A stretch of 19,309 bases of DNA from a virus, in IMG/VR virus record IMGVR_UViG_3300029725_000137, positions 1 to 19,309 of that record. One strand, written 5' to 3'. The translations under genes were made by a program, and so were the position numbers. Numbering within the stretch: position 1 is the stretch's first letter; the number at the start of each line of letters is the position of its first letter. Below are positions 9,905 to 16,738 of the stretch, piece by piece. Below the pieces are notes generated by a model. The model searched no databases, was not told where the DNA came from, and saw only the letters and a list, made by a program, of their open reading frames with translations.

Positions 9905-9978
9905 TGGTTGCAGGGGGAGGAGTTGAACCTCCGACACGGGGACAGGAACCCCGTATGATACCGTTTCACCACCCTGCG
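9905..9978 (-). tRNA. tRNA with anticodon CCU, formally tRNA-Arg(CCT), carrying initiator-tRNA-type acceptor and anticodon stems
   Basis: 74-nt cloverleaf folded by hand. Acceptor CGCAGGG/CCCTGCA has 6 Watson-Crick pairs plus a C1-A72 mismatch. Then U8 G9, D-stem GUGA/UCAU, D-loop AACGGUA, A26. Anticodon stem is CGGGG/CCCCG and the loop is UUCCUGU, with anticodon CCU corresponding to plus-strand agg at 9944-9946. Variable loop UGUC, T-stem GGAGG/CCUCC, T-loop UUCAACU, discriminator A73, and an encoded CCA. Confidence 0.9.
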
Positions 9979-12026: not shown

Positions 12027-12545
12027 GTGAAAAAGTGTCCTATATGCGGCAAGGATGTTCCGCCGCGCTACGGATCGCGGGAAAGAGTGTACTGCTCCCG
12101 CGCATGTCTCAAGGCACACTATGACGCCGCCTGGGAAACTATCACCTGCCCCGTGTGCGGAAAGGAATTCCGCGCTAAAAAACTCTTTCGGCGGAAACAT
12201 TGCTCTTATCCTTGCGCGAATGCAGCCCAGAAGGGGCGGAAAATCACGTCAGAAGCCTTTCAGGAGGCTTGCAAGCATCGGGGAGTTCCCGGCCCCAGGA
12301 AGCACCCCAGAACAGGGAAATTTGAGACAAATTGCCATGCAAAGATATGGCTGCTGGAATCCCCGGATGGAGAGAAAGTCACGGCTCGGAATCTCAAACT
12401 CTACATGATAGACCGGTACGGCGAAGAAAAGGGGAAAAAGGTCTATAAGCTCCTGGTTTGTGCTGCACAACGCTTCCGTAAATGCGGACATGGCGGCGGC
12501 GCCGGATGGCGGGTACTTGCCGCCCCTGCCGTCCCGAAGGAATAA
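12027..12545 (+). CDS. Tandem zinc-ribbon (FCS/TRASH-like) protein with a C-terminal phage DNA-binding-like tail
   Basis: 172 aa starting at GTG. It has two copies of CPxCGK-x(11-13)-(Y/H)CSxxC: CPICGKDVPPRYGSRERVYCSRAC and CPVCGKEFRAKKLFRRKHCSYPC. The C-terminal ..CHAKIWLLESPDGEKVTARNLKLYM...GWRV resembles tails seen on phage homing-endonuclease-like ORFs. That resemblance is from memory and low confidence. Confidence 0.6.
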   Translation: MKKCPICGKDVPPRYGSRERVYCSRACLKAHYDAAWETITCPVCGKEFRAKKLFRRKHCSYPCANAAQKGRKITSEAFQEACKHRGVPGPRKHPRTGKFETNCHAKIWLLESPDGEKVTARNLKLYMIDRYGEEKGKKVYKLLVCAAQRFRKCGHGGGAGWRVLAAPAVPKE

Positions 12546-12576
12546 AAAAGGGCAGCCCCGAAGAACCGCCCTTTTT
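12544..12576 (+). terminator. Candidate bidirectional-looking intrinsic terminator
   Basis: An A-run (12544-12549) precedes stem GGGCAG (12550-12555) / CCGCCC (12566-12571), which has one mismatch and a 10-nt loop. It is followed by TTTTT (12572-12576), directly after the stop of 12027..12545. Confidence 0.45.
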
Positions 12577-12746: not shown

Positions 12747-12769
12747 GTTACTATAAATTTTATAGTAAC
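12747..12769. promoter_or_regulatory. Perfect 23-bp palindrome, a candidate operator, in the AT-rich promoter region of the acidic-protein gene
   Basis: GTTACTATAAA-T-TTTATAGTAAC has 11-bp arms, all 11 positions complementary. It contains TATAAA/TATAGT -10-like hexamers and lies 75 bp upstream of ATG 12844. Confidence 0.5.
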
Positions 12770-12843: not shown

Positions 12844-13167
12844 ATGAACGATAACAAAATCATCACCACGGAAGACGGAGAAGAAATCAACCTGACCGCT
12901 CTTGAACGTGAATTCGGCAGCTACGACTTTGAAGGCAAGACCTATTATGCAGCGCGCCAGATGGAATACACCAACAGGGTTTTCCCTGGCTCCTACGCGG
13001 ACAAATACGAGGACGGCAGCTACATGGAAGAATGGTCTGCTCCTGGCTATGATGCAGAAGGGAACAAGGTTGAAATCTTCATGGCCTTTGAACAAATGAC
13101 GGGCGAAGAAATTGACGGAGAAAACCTCAACTGGACGCAGGACGCTTCCCGCGTTGAAGCTCGCTAA
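12844..13167 (+). CDS. Small, strongly acidic protein (107 aa), function unknown
   Basis: ATG start. By my count there are about 25 D/E versus 9 K/R. It has its own AT-rich upstream region and a downstream hairpin. Confidence 0.65.
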   Translation: MNDNKIITTEDGEEINLTALEREFGSYDFEGKTYYAARQMEYTNRVFPGSYADKYEDGSYMEEWSAPGYDAEGNKVEIFMAFEQMTGEEIDGENLNWTQDASRVEAR

Positions 13168-13176
13168 ATAACCCCC

Positions 13177-13204
13177 AGGGGCGGCAAAGCCGCCCCTCCT
13201 TTCT
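13177..13204 (+). terminator. Candidate terminator or attenuating hairpin
   Basis: GGGGCGGC-AAA-GCCGCCCC (13177-13195) followed by TCCTTTCTC. The U-tract is poor, and the next ATG is only 5 nt further on, so it is probably leaky. Confidence 0.4.
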
Positions 13205-13208
13205 CACT

Positions 13209-14513
13209 ATGACCGCACAAGAATTTATCGACTGGCTTCAAACTGCCAACAATCTTCCAAATCCTACCCAAGCTGTAAAAAGGGCCGCGCAGATGATGCG
13301 GGTGACGGAAGATGTTATTTGGAAATGGTTAAATACTAAAAAACCATACCCCACGCCTGAATACATGCAATTACTCATGGATTTATTGCATGAGAAATAC
13401 CGAGAAAAGAGGTTTTACCGCATTCTTTCTCACGAACAGCGTGAAGAGATGCGGTCCATGTTGGGCAAAAAACCTGATCTGGAAATCGCCGAGCTACTCG
13501 GAATAGCGCGCGTCACGGTCCAGACTGAACGCTATAAATTAGGTATCAAAAAGTATTGCAGCCCTGAAGCAATCCGCATCCAACATGATGAAGAGCTTAT
13601 TGCAGTGCTCGGAAAAATTCCTGACTCGGAGTGTGCCAAGAAGTTTGGATACTCAAATTCCAGAGTAGCCTACCTTAGAAAGAAATTAGGGATTAAGTCA
13701 TATAAGGGGCCGCGTAAACCCCGTCAGCCACGAGACCCAAATAAACCACACAAGAAAAAAGAGTATCCCGAAGAGTTAATTAACATGCTTGGAAAGACCC
13801 CGGATGATGAAATTGCTAAAAAATTCGGTTATTCCAAGGCAGGAATTGCGCTTATTAGAAAAAAGATGGGCATTCCATCATTACCTGATACTAAATTCCC
13901 CAAAATGAAACGCGAAGAAATGCTATCTATGCTTGGAAAATTTCCTGATAGCGAAATTGCTGAAAAGTTTGGAATATCGCTTAATTTTGTAGCGCGGAAC
14001 CGTAGAAAATTAAAAATTGCTCAAGCTCCATACTCCCCCATTAAGGATGCGGACAAGGATATGATTCTTAATTTATTGGGAAGAGTATCAGATTTAAAAA
14101 TTTCAAAAAAAACAGGGTACAGCCCATATGTAATTAAAAAATTTAGAGAACAGAACAAAATTAAGCCTTTCAATAAAAGCATTTTAGAAAGATTTTCACC
14201 GGACCAACGTAAAAAACTCTTATCTATGCTTGGGAAAGTTTATGATAGAGTAATAGCCGAAAAATTTAATATTGATAACGAGGTAGTAAGAAGAATTAGA
14301 CAGAAATTGAATGTTCCGGCATTACGTGAGGAAAAAAGCTTGCAAGAAACAATAGAAAGGGACGAATACATTAAATCCCTGCTGGGCACAATGACTGATA
14401 AAGAAGTCGCTAATAAAACAGGCAAATCAATACAAGTTATCGGAAAAGCAAGGAGAAAATTAAATATCCCGGCGTTTGATACAAGGGGTCGGTCTACAAA
14501 GAAACAATCTTGA
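13209..14513 (+). CDS. Multi-HTH DNA-binding protein with an N-terminal HTH plus 7 tandem GerE / sigma-70-region-4-like repeats
   Basis: 434 aa with 7 repeats of the pattern (E/D)x(M/L)(L/I)xxLGKxPDxEIAxKFGxSxxxVxxxRRKLGI(P/K). Examples are LGKKPDLEIAELLGIARVTVQTERYKLGI, LGKIPDSECAKKFGYSNSRVAYLRKKLGI, LGKTPDDEIAKKFGYSKAGIALIRKKMGI, LGKFPDSEIAEKFGISLNFVARNRRKLKI, LGRVSDLKISKKTGYSPYVIKKFREQNKI, LGKVYDRVIAEKFNIDNEVVRRIRQKLNV and LGTMTDKEVANKTGKSIQVIGKARRKLNI. The period is 48-60 aa. The DNA is visibly AT-richer than the rest of the window. Confidence 0.8.
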   Translation: MTAQEFIDWLQTANNLPNPTQAVKRAAQMMRVTEDVIWKWLNTKKPYPTPEYMQLLMDLLHEKYREKRFYRILSHEQREEMRSMLGKKPDLEIAELLGIARVTVQTERYKLGIKKYCSPEAIRIQHDEELIAVLGKIPDSECAKKFGYSNSRVAYLRKKLGIKSYKGPRKPRQPRDPNKPHKKKEYPEELINMLGKTPDDEIAKKFGYSKAGIALIRKKMGIPSLPDTKFPKMKREEMLSMLGKFPDSEIAEKFGISLNFVARNRRKLKIAQAPYSPIKDADKDMILNLLGRVSDLKISKKTGYSPYVIKKFREQNKIKPFNKSILERFSPDQRKKLLSMLGKVYDRVIAEKFNIDNEVVRRIRQKLNVPALREEKSLQETIERDEYIKSLLGTMTDKEVANKTGKSIQVIGKARRKLNIPAFDTRGRSTKKQS

Positions 14514-14537: not shown

Positions 14538-14632
14538 TATACGAGATTCCAGGGGGTATACGAGATTCCAGGGGGTATACGAGATTCCAGGGGGTATACG
14601 AGATTCCAGGGGGTATACGAGATTCCAAGGCT
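14538..14632. repeat. Head-to-tail tandem array of a 19-bp unit, 4 perfect copies plus 1 degenerate copy
   Basis: The unit TATACGAGATTCCAGGGGG occurs at 14538, 14557, 14576 and 14595. A degenerate copy TATACGAGATTCCAAGGCT is at 14614. The array fills the convergent gap between the multi-HTH gene stop (14513) and the loader stop (14631-14633). Confidence 0.95.
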
Positions 14633-15353
14633 ATTTCCTGGGATGGTAGTTGATCTCGCGGTAGGACTGCCACTCGCACGGGATGGCGCCGCCTGTCATG
14701 TGCATCCGGGAAGTAATGGAGGGACCAAGACTCGGCTCGACGTCTTCCCCGATGAGATTGGAAATGACCACAGTAATTTTTCCGTCCTGGTGACGGCTGT
14801 CGATAAGACGGTCAATGGAATATTGAGAAAAATCCGATCTCTTGAGCTCGTGGAATTCGTCAATAACCAAATAGGTAGGACGCTTGAACGCCCTGGCAAT
14901 ATCATTTTCCCGCTTGGACTCCCGCAAATCAAGGCAGTAGTCATACGCTTTGACGTATTTGACGGACCTTCCGAGCCGCACCAGGCCGCGGGCCAGGGAT
15001 GTTGCCATCACAGTTTTGCCAGTGCCGCAGGGCCCATGAAGCGCAATGATTGCTCCGGACTTCCGAGCAAAGTCCGCTAAACGGTCTCTGGCGGCTTTCC
15101 ACGGGCTTTCTGCATCGTTTACCCTATCCAGAGCTAAAACGGCCATTTTGGGGAAGCCAGAGGCCAGCAAGAGGTGAAATTCTTCCTGGGCCTGTTGCAT
15201 GGCTTCCCGCGTGAGCCGTTCCTGCTCCACTTTGGCGTCAAGTTCGGGGTCGTCCGATGCGAGGGCCGAAAGCCTGTCCAGCAGGGCGTCGATAGACCCG
15301 TCTCCAAACATATCCCGCACGTTGTGCAAATTCCGTGATGTGTTAATATCCAT
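14631..15353 (-). CDS. DnaC/IstB-like AAA+ ATPase, a replicative helicase loader
   Basis: Walker A is HGPCGTGKT and Walker B is YLVIDEF. I start the gene at MDINTSRNL (ATG 15353..15351), preceded by GGAG 5 nt upstream. It overlaps the upstream TAA (15345..15343). The track's N-terminal extension overlaps the upstream gene. Confidence 0.8.
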   Translation of the reverse strand: MDINTSRNLHNVRDMFGDGSIDALLDRLSALASDDPELDAKVEQERLTREAMQQAQEEFHLLLASGFPKMAVLALDRVNDAESPWKAARDRLADFARKSGAIIALHGPCGTGKTVMATSLARGLVRLGRSVKYVKAYDYCLDLRESKRENDIARAFKRPTYLVIDEFHELKRSDFSQYSIDRLIDSRHQDGKITVVISNLIGEDVEPSLGPSITSRMHMTGGAIPCEWQSYREINYHPRK

Positions 15354-16104
15354 AAGTTCTCCTTCCTGGTGTGGTTGTTGATGGTGAGGGCGTTCCTCTT
15401 CGGTTTTCGGCATAGCGCAAGGCGTAAGCCAATGCGGCGGCTTGCCAGTTGTTGATGGGGTTCCCCTTGGCATCCACCCATCCGCAAGCCTCTTTATCAG
15501 CGTAGAAAAGCATTGATAATTCGTTGATTTGAGATTCATTGAGAAGCAGACGGCCCCTCAATGCTTCGGCTTGGAGGTAGGCTTTCACTTTGTCGGAATC
15601 CTCCGGCAAAGCTCGTTGCCGGGAATAGGCTGTGTTTTCTCCAATATTATTATTCTCTTCTCTTCTCTTCTCTGGTCGGACATTGTGTCGGACAACGGTC
15701 GGACATGGTGTCGGACTTTTGTCGGACGCCATGTCGGAAACGTTGTCGGATTGGTCTTTCAGAGATCGCCGGATTCGTTTTGCTTCCGCTTCCAAGGCGC
15801 GGGCCTTGGAGGAATTGCCGTTGTGGCGGTCAAAGTTGGGGATTACAAGGGCGCCTTCACGGCCTTGCAACCAGCCAACGGAGACAAGGCCGCGGGCAAA
15901 TCCGGGACAATAAACAACCCGGTCGATGTGTGCATATTTCGTCTTAAGGATTCCGTCTTGAGTATTGGCATCGGCCCACGCCCAAAACCGCCACAGTTTC
16001 CCCAGCACAAAATCAGGGTCATCCATGTGCAGTATTTCCGCCAGCTTCACCACTTCGGGCTTGTCGGGTGTTGTGTGTTCAACTTTTATCCAGTCTCCGG
16101 CCAT
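15343..16104 (-). CDS. Phage replisome organizer / replication initiator-like protein
   Basis: I start the gene at MAGDWIKVEHTTPDKPEVVKLAEIL..GKLWRFWAWAD (ATG 16104..16102). This N-terminal pattern is typical of phage replication-organizer proteins. It lies directly upstream of the DnaC-like loader and contains an internal iteron array. Confidence 0.65.
   Translation of the reverse strand: MAGDWIKVEHTTPDKPEVVKLAEILHMDDPDFVLGKLWRFWAWADANTQDGILKTKYAHIDRVVYCPGFARGLVSVGWLQGREGALVIPNFDRHNGNSSKARALEAEAKRIRRSLKDQSDNVSDMASDKSPTPCPTVVRHNVRPEKRREENNNIGENTAYSRQRALPEDSDKVKAYLQAEALRGRLLLNESQINELSMLFYADKEACGWVDAKGNPINNWQAAALAYALRYAENRRGTPSPSTTTPGRRTYGY
15675..15751. repeat. Seven phased GTCGGA(C) iterons inside the replisome-organizer gene; candidate ori
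   Basis: (T/G)GTCGGAC begins at 15675, 15687, 15698, 15710, 15721, 15733 and 15745, a spacing of 11-12 bp. It is immediately flanked at 15643-15674 by the AT/pyrimidine-rich tract aatattattattctcttctcttctcttctct. Confidence 0.7.
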
Positions 16105-16135
16105 AATCAAAAAAGCGTCAGTTGGGGGTTGTAGT

Positions 16136-16738
16136 TCATAACCATTTGATGGTGCAGTTTCCGCGGTAGCTTTTAATCCAATGGAACCATGCGTATGCAA
16201 TCGCCCCACCTTCGGCCTTGGAAAAATCCCCGTTTTTGGCGCAGGTCCGCCGCTCGCTGAATACCCACACGTCGGAGGGGGGGGCAACGTCGAACAGCCG
16301 ACGACGGGCCTTGCCCTCTAAAAACTGAAGGCGCAGAAGCATCCAGACATTGGCTCCATCCTTGACGCAGGCAAGCGCACGCTCGACAAATTCAAGGGCT
16401 GTGGCGTAGGAAGGATTGGTCATAATATCCACGTCTCCTATCTCGCTACCGTCGAATTCCCACAAGAAATCTTGTACGCAGGAATCAGGACATCCACGGT
16501 CAACAATGTCGGTTGCACAGACTTCATGCCCCCGCTCCCGCAGGACATTGACGATATGACCAGCCCCGCAGGCCGGTTCCCATACACGTTTCCGGAGAGG
16601 AGCACCTGCGTTGAGCAAATCACGCACCATGTCAGGGTGTGTGGCGTAGTAGTCTTCCCGCGGGCGCTCGCCGGAGGCAAGGTAGGATGCGCCCAACGTG
16701 GCACCAAGAGTTCGGTTGTTACCTGTCCAGTCTTTCAT
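16136..16738 (-). CDS. Orphan DNA methyltransferase, N6-adenine or N4-cytosine class
   Basis: I start the gene at MKDWTGNN (ATG 16738..16736), preceded by AAAGGAGGGGGA. Motif I-like is VWEPACGAGH and motif IV-like is IMTNPSY, a variant of (D/N)PP(Y/F). No adjacent restriction enzyme gene is present. Confidence 0.65.
   Translation of the reverse strand: MKDWTGNNRTLGATLGASYLASGERPREDYYATHPDMVRDLLNAGAPLRKRVWEPACGAGHIVNVLRERGHEVCATDIVDRGCPDSCVQDFLWEFDGSEIGDVDIMTNPSYATALEFVERALACVKDGANVWMLLRLQFLEGKARRRLFDVAPPSDVWVFSERRTCAKNGDFSKAEGGAIAYAWFHWIKSYRGNCTIKWL

What the first reader, a model, noticed from the sequence alone, without database searches (positions are those of the whole stretch)
13209..14513. 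434-aa protein built from seven tandem sigma-r4/GerE-like HTH repeats
There are seven diverged copies of ..LGKxPDxEIAxKFGxSxxxVxxxRRKLGI.. with a period of 48-60 aa, plus an N-terminal HTH-like segment. A single polypeptide carrying about 8 HTH units is an unusual architecture. Such HTHs normally occur once per chain and act as dimers. The gene is AT-richer than its surroundings, is transcribed against both flanking operons, and ends 24 bp before a 19-bp tandem DNA array. It could be a modular reader of repeated DNA, acting as a regulator, roadblock or centromere binder.
Basis: partly seen in the sequence, partly recalled or inferred. Interest (0 to 1): 0.7.

Follow-up and report, generated by a model that had tools for sequence, protein, structure and literature searches.

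The report
Phage protein: string of eight HTH modules
An Akkermansia prophage gene encodes a very basic protein made of a Cro-like domain followed by seven small DNA-binding (helix-turn-helix) modules; it is a real member of a large, barely studied class related to phage T5 protein D5 and to homing-endonuclease DNA-binding tails, and the neighbouring DNA repeats are not tied to it.

Summary
ORF 13209-14513 (+) encodes a 434-aa, pI 10 protein with seven diverged 43-aa repeats (period 48-60 aa) after an N-terminal 4-helix HTH-like domain. AlphaFold gives each repeat as a three-helix HTH bundle (single unit pLDDT 91) joined by flexible linkers.

The architecture is not rare. 2,386 protein clusters in the 1.84-billion-protein library match at E<=1e-3, and the relatives I fetched carry 1-19 units. 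The same unit forms the DNA-binding tail of GIY-YIG homing endonucleases in Vibrio phages. The protein also matches PHROG 323, the family of phage T5 D5, annotated in GenBank as a DNA-binding regulator.

The gene is the last of a mobile, AT-rich three-gene cassette (zinc-ribbon protein, acidic protein, this protein) in Akkermansia prophages, and it is under purifying selection (dN/dS about 0.25).

The proposed link to repeated DNA fails. The 19-bp array has 0-6 copies in relatives, regardless of whether the repeat domain is present. The GTCGGA iterons travel with the replication initiator gene.

At this locus the N-terminal domain is the constant part. Its recognition helix co-varies with a 23-bp palindrome in the cassette promoter, which suggests autoregulation.

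Best reading: a D5-like, multivalent DNA-binding regulator whose target is unknown.

The parts
13209..14513 (+). Gene for the 434-aa multi-HTH protein (pI 9.97, 94 K+R against 54 D+E)
   Evidence: Full-length homologues at 48-95% identity. dN/dS 0.22-0.32 against five orthologues.
13209..13433 (+). N-terminal domain (aa 1-75): four helices, Cro/Xre-like HTH (helices 19-30 and 34-41), with an invariant LLMxLLHEKY helix. This is the constant part of the gene at this locus.
   Evidence: AlphaFold. Invariant columns. Occurs as a free-standing 66-aa protein, as four tandem copies, or fused to an acidic domain in related phages. Its recognition helix co-varies with the operator type.
13434..13562 (+). 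HTH unit 1 (aa 76-118)
   Evidence: three helices
13581..13709 (+). HTH unit 2 (aa 125-167)
13710..13760 (+). Long basic proline-rich linker PRKPRQPRDPNKPHKKK (aa 168-184, net charge +7); predicted disordered and variable in length among homologues
13761..13889 (+). HTH unit 3 (aa 185-227)
13905..14033 (+). HTH unit 4 (aa 233-275); lies in the zone where relatives gain or lose whole units
14049..14177 (+). HTH unit 5 (aa 281-323); the most diverged unit (…FREQNKI instead of …R..LGI)
14202..14330 (+). HTH unit 6 (aa 332-374)
14355..14483 (+). HTH unit 7 (aa 383-425); the best conserved unit across the family (LLGTMTD…RRKLNIP.F)
12844..13167 (+). Conserved upstream partner gene: acidic 107-aa protein (pI 4.1; 196 aa in some relatives). 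No family match.
   Evidence: Lies immediately upstream of the multi-HTH gene in all window-type and cI-type relatives examined.
12027..12545 (+). First gene of the cassette: 172-aa basic protein with two CxxC zinc ribbons and a C-terminal part resembling the non-catalytic region of phage HNH endonucleases (phrog_1271 positions 178-248). No nuclease domain matched.
12747..12769 (.). Perfect 11+1+11 palindrome GTTACTATAAA-T-TTTATAGTAAC in front of the acidic gene; candidate operator of the cassette
   Evidence: A second palindrome type sits at the same place in relatives and tracks the N-domain recognition helix.
13177..13197 (+). Strong terminator-like hairpin ending 11 nt before the ATG of the multi-HTH gene (-19.2 kcal/mol, z -3.5). 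Conserved with a different stem/loop sequence plus a T-run in L001.
14538..14630 (.). 19-bp tandem array (TATACGAGATTCCAGGGGG x4.7) between the two convergent stop codons. Adjacent to the repeat domain but not coupled to it; function unexplained.
   Evidence: No better RNA folding than shuffles. No Rfam match.

Best explanation
This is a functional Akkermansia-prophage gene for a 'beads-on-a-string' DNA-binding protein. It has a Cro/Xre-like N-terminal HTH domain followed by seven different 43-aa three-helix HTH modules, joined by short flexible, often basic linkers. The modules are of the type found in phage T5 protein D5 and in the DNA-binding tails of GIY-YIG homing endonucleases.

Shown here: the repeat anatomy, the fold, purifying selection, the homology relations, the modular gain and loss of units, and the cassette context.

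Inferred:
(1) Each module places its variable third helix in a DNA major groove. Structural positions (L12, G13, D17, A21, G25, V31, R35, L38, G39, I40) are fixed, while helix-3 positions 28-30, 32-34 and 36-37 are highly variable. One chain would therefore contact a long stretch of DNA of composite rather than repetitive sequence, by my estimate roughly 30-70 bp.
(2) The N-terminal domain binds the 23-bp palindrome in the cassette promoter and autoregulates the operon, in the manner of Cro or Aca proteins.
(3) The biological role is D5-like modulation of transcription or replication on phage, host or competitor DNA. It is delivered from a mobile, AT-rich accessory cassette together with an acidic partner protein.

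The DNA target of the seven modules is unknown. It is not the neighbouring 19-bp array or the origin iterons.
For: Repeats are real and highly significant. AlphaFold gives three helices per unit and disordered linkers for the whole protein (pLDDT 74, pTM 0.26) and pLDDT 91.3 for a single unit with 120 aligned units. Structural neighbours of the unit are all DNA-binding HTH domains: FapR (TM 0.66, rmsd 2.0), Z-alpha, GerE/LuxR-type and DeoR.

Pfam HTH_23 (33.2 against 24.6) and HTH_28 (31.5 against 25) pass their cut-offs. phrog_323 'transcriptional regulator, D5-like' matches at 9.7e-24 in three stretches. T5 D5 itself is a phrog_323 member at 1.2e-71 and aligns in register over three units by BLASTP (E 1e-4). 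The GenBank record describes D5 as a DNA-binding protein required for replication and late transcription, and a 2026 preprint reports that its HTH binds retron msDNA (PMC13405049).

The same units form the C-terminal part of GIY-YIG homing endonucleases in Vibrio phages. The unit profile's best solved relative is the sigma-54 RpoN-box DNA-reading helix (E 3e-4).

The protein has pI 9.97 and net charge +40. dN/dS is 0.22-0.28 in the units against four diverged orthologues. Orthologous units are far more alike (up to 98%) than paralogous ones (21-56%), so each position has kept its own identity. The pattern of scaffold against variable positions comes from 596 units.

The operator palindrome is conserved upstream of the acidic gene in both phage backbones. 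The alternative palindrome type goes with the alternative recognition helix (WKWL against WQWL), including in the two recombinant cases L046 and L062.
Against: No DNA-binding experiment exists for this family, and no target sequence could be predicted. All Foldseek matches to solved structures are statistically weak (E > 0.1) because the domain is small. hhalign of the unit profile against D5 alone is weak (probability 7.5%), so the D5 link rests on the PHROG profile and on BLASTP.

The operator/N-domain covariation involves only two operator types and closely linked DNA, so another regulator could bind the palindrome. The hairpin directly upstream of the ATG leaves it unclear how, and how strongly, the gene is expressed. 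Expression timing (lysogen or lytic cycle) is unknown.
Confidence: 0.55

Rival explanations
1. The seven HTH units read the adjacent repeated DNA (the 19-bp array at 14538-14630 or the seven GTCGGA iterons at 15675-15750), one unit per repeat, acting as a centromere binder, roadblock or origin regulator.
For: The gene ends 24 nt before the array. The window has seven GTCGGA iterons at 11-12 bp spacing and seven HTH units. In window-type phages the array always directly follows the gene at this locus.
Against: Array copy number is 1, 2, 3, 4.7 or 6 in relatives and does not track unit number. Twelve relatives with a 95%-identical 7-unit protein have 2 copies. The 9-unit protein has 1 copy. Phages with the 66-aa N-domain-only protein still have 1-2 copies. 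L005-L007, with 7-8 units, have none and carry a plain terminator instead.

Iterons number 7, 6, 6 and 0 for 7, 9, 0 and 7 units, and they lie inside the initiator gene in the manner of a lambda O-type origin. The seven recognition helices all differ, whereas the DNA repeats are identical.
Confidence: 0.06
2. A nuclease-less derivative of a homing endonuclease. The HTH string is a homing-site recognition tail that has lost its GIY-YIG/HNH domain. It is either a decaying selfish remnant or a targeting subunit that guides a nuclease supplied in trans (for example with the zinc-ribbon protein of the same cassette).
For: Among isolated phages, the only sequence matches are GIY-YIG homing endonucleases whose C-terminal part consists of 5 such units. 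P0037 combines GIY-YIG with units. There are phrog_7168, phrog_59 and PADLOC 'HEase' matches. The first cassette gene resembles the non-catalytic part of HNH endonucleases. The cassette is AT-rich and has moved between two phage backbones.
Against: No nuclease domain is present in the protein or in the cassette. Purifying selection and intact reading frames in all relatives argue against decay. Most of the fetched and scanned relatives have no nuclease domain, and two distant ones sit in ordinary chromosomal contexts. The gene occupies one fixed locus as part of an operon with a conserved operator, rather than interrupting or abutting a conserved target gene.
Confidence: 0.12
3. A conflict ('moron') pair. 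The basic multi-HTH protein coats or silences DNA non-specifically, for host takeover, superinfection exclusion or xenogeneic silencing. The acidic upstream protein acts as its DNA-mimic antidote or chaperone, or is itself an anti-defence effector whose operon the HTH protein merely regulates.
For: An acidic (pI 4.1) protein and a basic (pI 10) protein are always adjacent. In some relatives an acidic domain is fused directly to the N-domain. In L005-L007 the cassette lies downstream of, and co-oriented with, the S24 cI-type repressor, a position typical of lysogen-expressed accessory genes. The locus is hypervariable in domain content. T5 D5 is mildly toxic when expressed alone (PMC13405049).
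Against: There are no matches to known defence or anti-defence families except a weak 'HEase' hit. Position-specific conservation of seven different recognition helices suggests sequence reading rather than non-specific coating. The acidic partner has no detectable relatives in Pfam, PHROGs, NCBIfam or the PDB, so its role is pure inference.
Confidence: 0.2
4. The HTH-like units are protein- or RNA-binding modules rather than DNA readers, for example binding RNA polymerase as sigma domains do.
For: The best sequence match to a solved structure is a sigma-54 domain. Sigma factors appear among the whole-model fold matches. No DNA target was found.
Against: The matched sigma-54 segment is the DNA-reading RpoN box. 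The strong positive charge is concentrated in helix 3 and the linkers. The same units are used in homing endonucleases, which must bind DNA. D5 is annotated as a DNA-binding protein.
Confidence: 0.05

Closest known systems
Bacteriophage T5 protein D5 (T5.118, 255 aa; PHROG 323 'transcriptional regulator, D5-like')
   Same: Built from tandem HTH-like units with the same …(W/F)TxEE..L…(T/S)..EIA…G.S…V…R.. pattern, read from the sequence. Both match phrog_323 (window 9.7e-24, D5 1.2e-71). BLASTP aligns three consecutive units in register (E 1e-4). D5 is phage-encoded, has no enzymatic domain, and is annotated as DNA-binding.
   Different: D5 has about four units and no Cro-like N-terminal domain, and it belongs to a virulent phage's early replication operon. 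The window protein has seven units plus the N-domain and sits in an accessory cassette of a temperate phage with an acidic partner. Identity is only about 25%, and the unit-profile comparison with D5 alone is weak.
DNA-binding tails of free-standing GIY-YIG homing endonucleases of Vibrio phages (e.g. NC_021067 VPBG_00263, phrog_7168)
   Same: The same 43-48-aa unit (…LLGT..D..IA…G.S…V…R…GI.PF) in five tandem copies. This supports a modular reader of long DNA targets on one polypeptide chain.
   Different: Those proteins carry an N-terminal GIY-YIG nuclease and sit next to terL. The window protein has no nuclease domain and has an N-terminal Cro-like domain instead.
Sigma-54 C-terminal RpoN-box domain (PDB 2o8k, 2ahq)
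   Same: Best sequence match of the unit profile among solved structures. Recognition helix plus tail: …G..v.r.TV.kyRe.LGIPss.eR (E 3e-4).
   Different: Only 26 residues align. There is no Pfam Sigma54_DBD match, and sigma-54 has a single copy in a quite different protein.
   Same: Same general tri-helical HTH geometry. GerE, RhlR, CviR and LiaR appear among the structural neighbours of the unit (TM 0.49-0.55, 26-35% identity).
   Different: Below the Pfam cut-offs. The unit has three helices, not the four of GerE. FapR/DeoR-type HTHs are closer in structure.
Eukaryotic multi-repeat HTH readers (Myb R1R2R3, Reb1, SNAP190, Pipsqueak), from my own knowledge
   Same: Tandem three-helix HTH repeats of about 50 aa on one chain, reading adjacent DNA segments. 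Reb1 and SNAPc appear among weak whole-model fold matches. One BFVD hit is a 'psq-type HTH' protein.
   Different: The unit lacks the three regularly spaced tryptophans.
Cro / Aca-type small HTH autoregulators (N-terminal domain only), from my own knowledge
   Same: A small HTH domain encoded at the end of an accessory operon whose promoter carries a perfect palindrome. Operator type and recognition helix co-vary. It occurs as a free-standing 66-aa protein in relatives.
   Different: There are no significant family matches (YdaS_toxin E 0.06). Binding is untested. Here the domain is fused to seven further HTH modules.

Membership tests
Sigma-70 region 4 / GerE (LuxR) HTH | Match to Pfam Sigma70_r4 / Sigma70_r4_2 / GerE at or above the gathering score | tested here: not met
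   Sigma70_r4_2 20.2 bits against a cut-off of 25.7. GerE 12.8 against 23.5. NCBIfam sigma70-ECF 17.6 against 42.9.
Sigma-70 region 4 / GerE (LuxR) HTH | Four-helix GerE-type bundle / closest structural neighbours | tested here: inconclusive
   The unit has three helices. GerE-family chains are among the neighbours (TM 0.49-0.55) but rank below FapR (0.66) and Z-alpha. All E > 0.5.
Generic tri-helical HTH (Pfam HTH_23 / HTH_28, homeodomain-like clan) | Whole-protein score above the Pfam gathering cut-off | tested here: met
   HTH_23 33.2 against 24.6. HTH_28 31.5 against 25.
T5 D5-like phage DNA-binding regulators (PHROG 323) | Significant match to the family profile over several units | tested here: met
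   phrog_323 E 9.7e-24, three stretches. D5 itself 1.2e-71. BLASTP to D5 E 1e-4 over 157 aa.
T5 D5-like phage DNA-binding regulators (PHROG 323) | Double-stranded DNA binding and control of replication / late transcription | not testable with these tools
   Known for D5 only from the GenBank note and PMC13405049. No experiment exists for the window protein.
GIY-YIG / HNH homing endonuclease | Catalytic nuclease domain (GIY-YIG PF01541 or HNH) | tested here: not met
   No nuclease family appears in the Pfam scan even at E up to 10. Relatives P0037 and VPBG_00263 do have GIY-YIG.
GIY-YIG / HNH homing endonuclease | Modular tandem DNA-binding tail of the same unit type | tested here: met
   phrog_7168 3.9e-10 and phrog_59 2.5e-7. 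tblastn hits only to such endonucleases among isolated phages.
Sigma-54 RpoN domain | Match to the RpoN-box DNA-binding domain | tested here: inconclusive
   Unit profile against the PDB: 2o8k E 3e-4, but only 26 aligned residues. No Sigma54_DBD Pfam hit.
Myb/SANT repeats | Profile similarity to Myb R2R3 | tested here: not met
   hhalign probability 0.5%.
ParB/centromere-binding or iteron-binding protein of the neighbouring repeats | Co-occurrence and co-variation of the protein repeat domain with the DNA repeats | tested here: not met
   The array is present without the repeat domain and absent with it. Iteron number and presence are unrelated to unit number. No ParB or ParA gene appears in the window's PHROG scans.
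Known anti-phage defence proteins (PADLOC) | Match to a defence-system model | tested here: not met
   Only 'HEase' at 6.5e-4 and sub-threshold AbiEi/Csa3 for the target; nothing for the two cassette partners.
Cro/Aca-like autoregulator (N-terminal domain) | HTH protein whose own operon promoter carries a matching palindromic operator | tested here: inconclusive
   A unique perfect palindrome at 12747-12769, conserved in relatives. The alternative palindrome pairs with the alternative recognition helix, including in recombinants L046 and L062. Binding is not testable here.

The most novel reading that the evidence does not exclude
The 43-aa unit is a bacterial/phage counterpart of zinc-finger or TALE modules. 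It would be a fixed three-helix scaffold whose few hypervariable helix-3 residues each specify a short DNA subsite. Strings of 5-19 units, which evolve by in-register gain, loss and recombination of whole units, would then spell out long asymmetric DNA addresses on a single chain. If so, a recognition code might be derived and the scaffold might be programmable. The N-domain/operator pair would be an anchor, and the variable string would retarget the protein between phage lineages.
Probability: 0.12. Interest if true: 0.8.

Novelty: new variant of a known kind. Interest (0 to 1): 0.45.

Why it matters
Single chains carrying many HTH modules turn out to be common in bacteria and phages: more than 2,000 clusters at 50% identity, with up to 19 units among the relatives examined. 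Yet no dedicated Pfam or NCBIfam model matched them here. One characterised relative turned up in my searches, T5 D5, which a recent preprint also reports as a retron trigger.

This Akkermansia case offers a tidy natural series at one locus: N-domain alone, four N-domains, an acidic domain fused to the N-domain, and the N-domain plus 5-9 units. That series could be used to work out what adding an HTH string does to a small regulator. It could also test whether the units read DNA in a modular, predictable way.

The case also concerns prophages of an abundant and medically studied gut bacterium. For the scan itself, the useful result is negative: the neighbouring DNA repeats are not this protein's partner.

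Tried and rejected
(1) Myb/SANT homology. It was suggested by the W-T-x-E-E…R consensus of distant units, but hhalign gave probability 0.5%.

(2) Foldseek of the whole 434-aa model against the PDB. It gave only weak, non-specific HTH matches (E > 0.1) because of the flexible string. The single-unit model gave better geometry but still non-significant E-values.

(3) phmmer of the whole protein against the PDB gave only a spurious KaiA match at E 0.09.

(4) megablast of the region against isolated phages gave a single 39-bp match to an Akkermansia phage and nothing else.

(5) A scan of GTDB species-representative genomes with the family alignment found no relative.

(6) PADLOC, NCBIfam, Pfam, PHROGs and the PDB were searched for the acidic partner; none matched.

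(7) The 19-bp array as a structured RNA or terminator: it folds no better than shuffles on either strand (z +1.4 and +2.7), and there is no Rfam family.

(8) The array as a genome-wide repeat: in representative genomes it occurs only in one Akkermansia MAG prophage, plus six single hits in unrelated organisms. I judge those six to be chance, given the size of the collection.

(9) Coupling of unit number to iteron or array copy number: rejected.

(10) Sigma-70-type promoter scan of the cassette: nothing above background. Verrucomicrobial promoter rules are not covered by the tool.

(11) Literature searches for 'tandem HTH', 'HTH repeats' and similar terms found no description of this family.
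Full report
OBSERVATION. The ORF at 13209-14513 (+) is real: ATG start, 434 codons, no other long ORF competing for the region. It contains seven copies of a roughly 43-aa unit at aa 76-118, 125-167, 185-227, 233-275, 281-323, 332-374 and 383-425. The copies are 21-56% identical to one another (mean 35%). One half of the repeat region aligns to the other half with a Smith-Waterman score of 141, against 32.6 +/- 5.4 in 200 shuffles. A unit HMM recovers all seven at E 1e-18 to 1e-23. The gene has GC 0.39, falling to 0.35 in its 3' half, against 0.55 for the window. It stops 24 nt before a perfect 19-bp tandem array. All descriptive statements of the finding are therefore confirmed. The one correction is that the gene is the last of three + strand genes (12027-12545, 12844-13167, 13209-14513) rather than a lone gene.

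WHERE IT SITS. The window is a tailed-phage genome. On the - strand it carries a tail fibre, major capsid protein, protease, portal, large and small terminase. The + strand block follows. Back on the - strand come a DnaC-like loader, a replication initiator with internal iterons, and a methyltransferase. Close relatives are metagenomic and viral contigs of the same phage type, with integrase, RecT/YqaJ/RuvC and SieB. One homologue is an NCBI protein of Akkermansia massiliensis. An Akkermansia muciniphila MAG carries a prophage of this type.

The three + strand genes form a cassette that is shared at 80-90% nucleotide identity with a different phage backbone (L005-L007). There it lies downstream of, and co-oriented with, an S24 cI-type repressor and converges on the endolysin gene. 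In the window-type backbone the cassette stays at the same place even when the replication module next to it is exchanged, for example DnaC-like against DnaB. The cassette therefore behaves as a mobile accessory module.

WHAT THE REPEATS ARE. AlphaFold2 with 17 family members gives a beads-on-a-string model. The N-terminal domain has four helices. Seven three-helix bundles follow, each at about pLDDT 80-88, separated by low-confidence linkers (overall pLDDT 74, pTM 0.26). A single unit modelled with 120 diverse units reaches pLDDT 91.3, with helices at positions 2-11, 17-24 and 28-38, i.e. helix, then helix-turn-helix. Its structural neighbours among solved structures are all DNA-binding HTH domains: FapR (TM 0.66, rmsd 2.0), Z-alpha, GerE/LuxR-type, DeoR, Lrp and the Mos1 transposase HTH. 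E-values are not significant, as expected for 45 residues.

By sequence, Pfam HTH_23 and HTH_28 pass their cut-offs, whereas Sigma70_r4_2 and GerE do not. A profile of 120 units finds the sigma-54 RpoN-box helix as its best solved relative (E 3e-4, 26 residues). A suspected Myb relationship was tested and rejected.

The unit consensus, taken from 596 units, is ..WTxEExxLLGkxsDxEiAxxfGiSxxxVxxxRxxLGIPxF. L12, G13, D17, A21, G25, V31, R35, L38, G39 and I40 are conserved. Helix-3 positions 28-30, 32-34 and 36-37 are highly variable. That is the pattern of a fixed scaffold carrying variable reading residues. The protein is strongly basic (pI 9.97, net +40), with charge concentrated in helix 3, in the 17-aa PRKPRQPRDPNKPHKKK linker and in the C-terminal tail.

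HOW COMMON IT IS. The architecture is not exceptional. An exhaustive phmmer search of 1.84 billion representative proteins finds 2,386 clusters at E<=1e-3 and 768 at E<=1e-10. In the 183 relatives I fetched, the unit HMM counts 1-19 units per protein (median 7), with a very regular period (median 48 aa), and units cover about 76% of protein length. Named members are 'hypothetical protein' from Pseudomonas guariconensis (19 units) and a Thermoanaerobaculia MAG, plus one automatic 'CsgD family' label. Two distant members lie in ordinary chromosomal contexts. Ten distant members scanned against Pfam show only generic HTH families, apart from one with a GIY-YIG domain. Foldseek against predicted viral structures finds 22 proteins at E<=1e-3. 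These include 447- and 462-aa unnamed proteins, proteins of Bacillus, Caulobacter and Mycobacterium phages, two 'endonucleases', and a 'D5 protein' of a Vibrio phage.

CLOSEST CHARACTERISED RELATIVES. The best PHROG is 323, 'transcriptional regulator, D5-like' (9.7e-24 in three stretches). I fetched phage T5 gene D5. Its product is a phrog_323 member (1.2e-71) and, from its sequence, consists of about four units of the same pattern. It aligns with the window protein in register across three units (BLASTP E 1e-4, 25% identity), although the unit profile alone against D5 is weak. The T5 GenBank record describes D5 as a DNA-binding protein required for DNA replication and late transcription and involved in shut-off of earlier genes. 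A 2026 preprint reports that the D5 HTH binds the msDNA of a type IX retron, triggers that retron, and is mildly toxic by itself (PMC13405049).

Independently, the only tblastn matches among 50,697 isolated phage genomes are free-standing GIY-YIG homing endonucleases of Vibrio and Pseudoalteromonas phages. In Vibrio phage helene the 346-aa protein is GIY-YIG plus five of these units and sits next to terL. So the unit is used where a single chain must recognise a long DNA site.

EVOLUTION WITHIN THE FAMILY. Family members have 5-9 units. Orthologous units are much more alike than paralogous ones: up to 98% for unit 7, against 21-56% within the protein. Each position has therefore kept its own identity. 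Whole units are gained, lost, duplicated (P0006) or recombined in register (P0010 has a hybrid of units 4 and 5) in the middle of the string. dN/dS against five orthologues is 0.22-0.32 overall and 0.23-0.28 in the units for the four diverged pairs. The string is functional, not a decaying remnant.

THE DNA REPEATS ARE NOT ITS PARTNER. The 17-19-nt unit TATACGAGATTCCAGGG(GG) lies in the small gap between the convergent stop codons of this gene and of the DnaC-like gene. Twelve relatives with a 95%-identical seven-unit protein have 2 copies. L025 has 3, the window 4.7, L022/L023 (nine units) 1, and L030 has 6 at a 17-nt period. Phages whose gene at this locus lacks the repeat domain altogether still have 1-2 copies. 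L005-L007, which have 7-8 units, have none and show an ordinary GC-hairpin/T-run terminator instead. The array does not fold better than shuffled sequence on either strand and matches no Rfam family. It remains unexplained.

The GTCGGA iterons at 15675-15750 (seven copies, 11-12 bp apart) coincide in number with the seven units, but the coincidence does not hold up. Phages with nine units or with no units have six iterons, and the 95%-identical seven-unit relatives have none. The iterons lie inside the initiator gene, in the manner of a lambda O-type origin, which is my own comparison. Identical DNA repeats would also be an odd match for seven different recognition helices.

THE N-TERMINAL DOMAIN IS THE CONSTANT PART. 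At the same locus related phages encode five forms:
- a 66-aa protein that is just the N-terminal domain;
- a protein of roughly 310 aa made of four N-domain copies;
- a protein of roughly 200 aa in which an acidic domain is fused to the N-domain;
- the N-domain plus 5-9 units, as in the window;
- four N-domains plus eight units (P0006).

Upstream of the acidic gene there is a perfect 11+1+11 palindrome, unique in the window at 12747-12769. Relatives have either this type, GTTACTATAAA-T-TTTATAGTAAC, or a second type..ACTAAACA-T-TGTTTAGT.., in an otherwise conserved promoter region. The first type goes with N-domains whose second HTH helix reads …WKWL and the second with …VTEMAVWQWL. This holds in two informative cases, L046 and L062, whose N-domain is otherwise closer to the second group.

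I infer that the N-domain is a Cro/Aca-like autoregulator of the cassette. This rests on correlation over two operator types and linked DNA, and is not shown. A strong hairpin (13177-13197, -19.2 kcal/mol, z -3.5) sits 11 nt before the ATG. It is conserved with different stem and loop sequences, and with a T-run, in L001. This suggests the gene is expressed by attenuated read-through from the acidic gene.

MECHANISM.
Shown: a conserved, selected, strongly basic protein of eight HTH domains on flexible linkers, homologous at the unit level to a DNA-binding phage regulator and to homing-endonuclease DNA-binding tails.
Inferred: the N-domain anchors on the palindromic operator. The seven distinct modules each insert helix 3 into a major groove and together contact a long stretch of composite DNA (roughly 30-70 bp by my estimate, from analogy with other tandem HTH readers). 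The outcome would be D5-like modulation of transcription or replication on phage, host or competing DNA.
Unknown: the actual target, the expression timing, and the role of the acidic partner.

Rivals are a nuclease-less homing-endonuclease derivative, a conflict pair with the acidic protein, a reader of the adjacent repeats, and non-DNA binding. They are weighed in the structured fields.

NOVELTY AND SCORE. The kind of protein (tandem HTH strings in phage DNA-binding proteins: D5, homing-endonuclease tails) already exists in databases, and one member has been studied. The window protein is a new variant: more units, fused to an autoregulator-like domain, and carried in a temperate-phage accessory cassette with an acidic partner. 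The class as a whole is large and essentially uncharacterised, and its scaffold/variable-residue pattern and unit-wise evolution leave open a modular recognition code. I rate the finding moderately interesting (0.45).

Noticed in passing
window 14538-14630; L001-L004, L012-L019, L022-L025, L028-L054, L062: The unit TATACGAGATTCCAGGG(GG) behaves as a variable-number tandem repeat (1-6 copies, period 17 or 19) wedged between the two convergent stop codons in window-type Akkermansia phages. It is not a structured RNA or a clear terminator, and it is not coupled to the HTH repeat domain. Its function (protein-binding site, recombination junction between modules, or slippage-prone spacer) is unexplained.
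   Followed up: partly
window 12747-12769; same position in L001-L007, L012-L025, L030-L049, L062: A perfect 23-bp palindrome lies in the promoter region of the acidic gene. It comes in two types that track the recognition helix (WKWL against WQWL) of the N-terminal domain encoded at the end of the operon. This makes a candidate operator/autoregulator pair.
   Followed up: partly
L031, L033-L035, L042, L044-L049, L054, L062 (short form); L037, L046, L048 (4 x N-domain); L030, L039, L043 (acidic domain + N-domain): The locus is a hotspot of domain shuffling. The same small HTH domain occurs alone, in four tandem copies, fused to an acidic domain, or fused to 5-9 HTH units.
   Followed up: partly
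window 12844-13167 (+); L001 9364-9954: The conserved partner protein is strongly acidic (pI 4.1-4.3; 107 aa, or 196 aa with an extra N-terminal part). It has no match in Pfam, PHROGs, NCBIfam, PADLOC or the PDB. It could be a DNA mimic, an antidote or an anti-defence effector; this is untested.
   Followed up: partly
window 12027-12545 (+): The first cassette gene encodes a basic 172-aa protein with two CxxC…C..C zinc ribbons. Its C-terminal W.L.sP.GE…NL motif region resembles the non-catalytic part of phage HNH endonucleases (phrog_1271). No nuclease family matched in the Pfam or PHROG scans.
   Followed up: partly
window 15675-15750: Seven GTCGGA iterons at 11-12 bp spacing lie inside the replication-initiator gene (15343-16287, -), probably a lambda O-type origin. 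Relatives with the same initiator type have six. Relatives with another initiator have none.
   Followed up: partly
window 13177-13197: A stable terminator-like hairpin sits 11 nt upstream of the target gene's ATG, with no visible Shine-Dalgarno sequence. In L001 the stem and loop differ but the pairing is kept and a T-run follows. This is a possible attenuator setting a low expression level.
   Followed up: partly
window 9908-9978 (-): A tRNA gene (Rfam RF00005, 54 bits) lies between the portal and large-terminase genes of the phage.
   Followed up: no
window 12545-12576: A 14-bp-stem hairpin flanked by A-run and T-run (a bidirectional terminator shape) lies directly after the zinc-ribbon gene. 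It separates that gene transcriptionally from the acidic gene and the multi-HTH gene.
   Followed up: no
P0042 (WP_409286734.1, Pseudomonas guariconensis), P0048, P0041: Bacterial 'hypothetical proteins' of 735-934 aa consist of 15-19 tandem copies of the same HTH unit. These are the longest strings seen.
   Followed up: no
window 14631-15539 and 15343-16287 (-): The mechanical ORFs of the DnaC-like and initiator genes overlap by about 200 nt. Relatives are called with a 246-aa DnaC-like product, so the true start of the window's DnaC-like gene is probably downstream of the first in-frame ATG.
   Followed up: no
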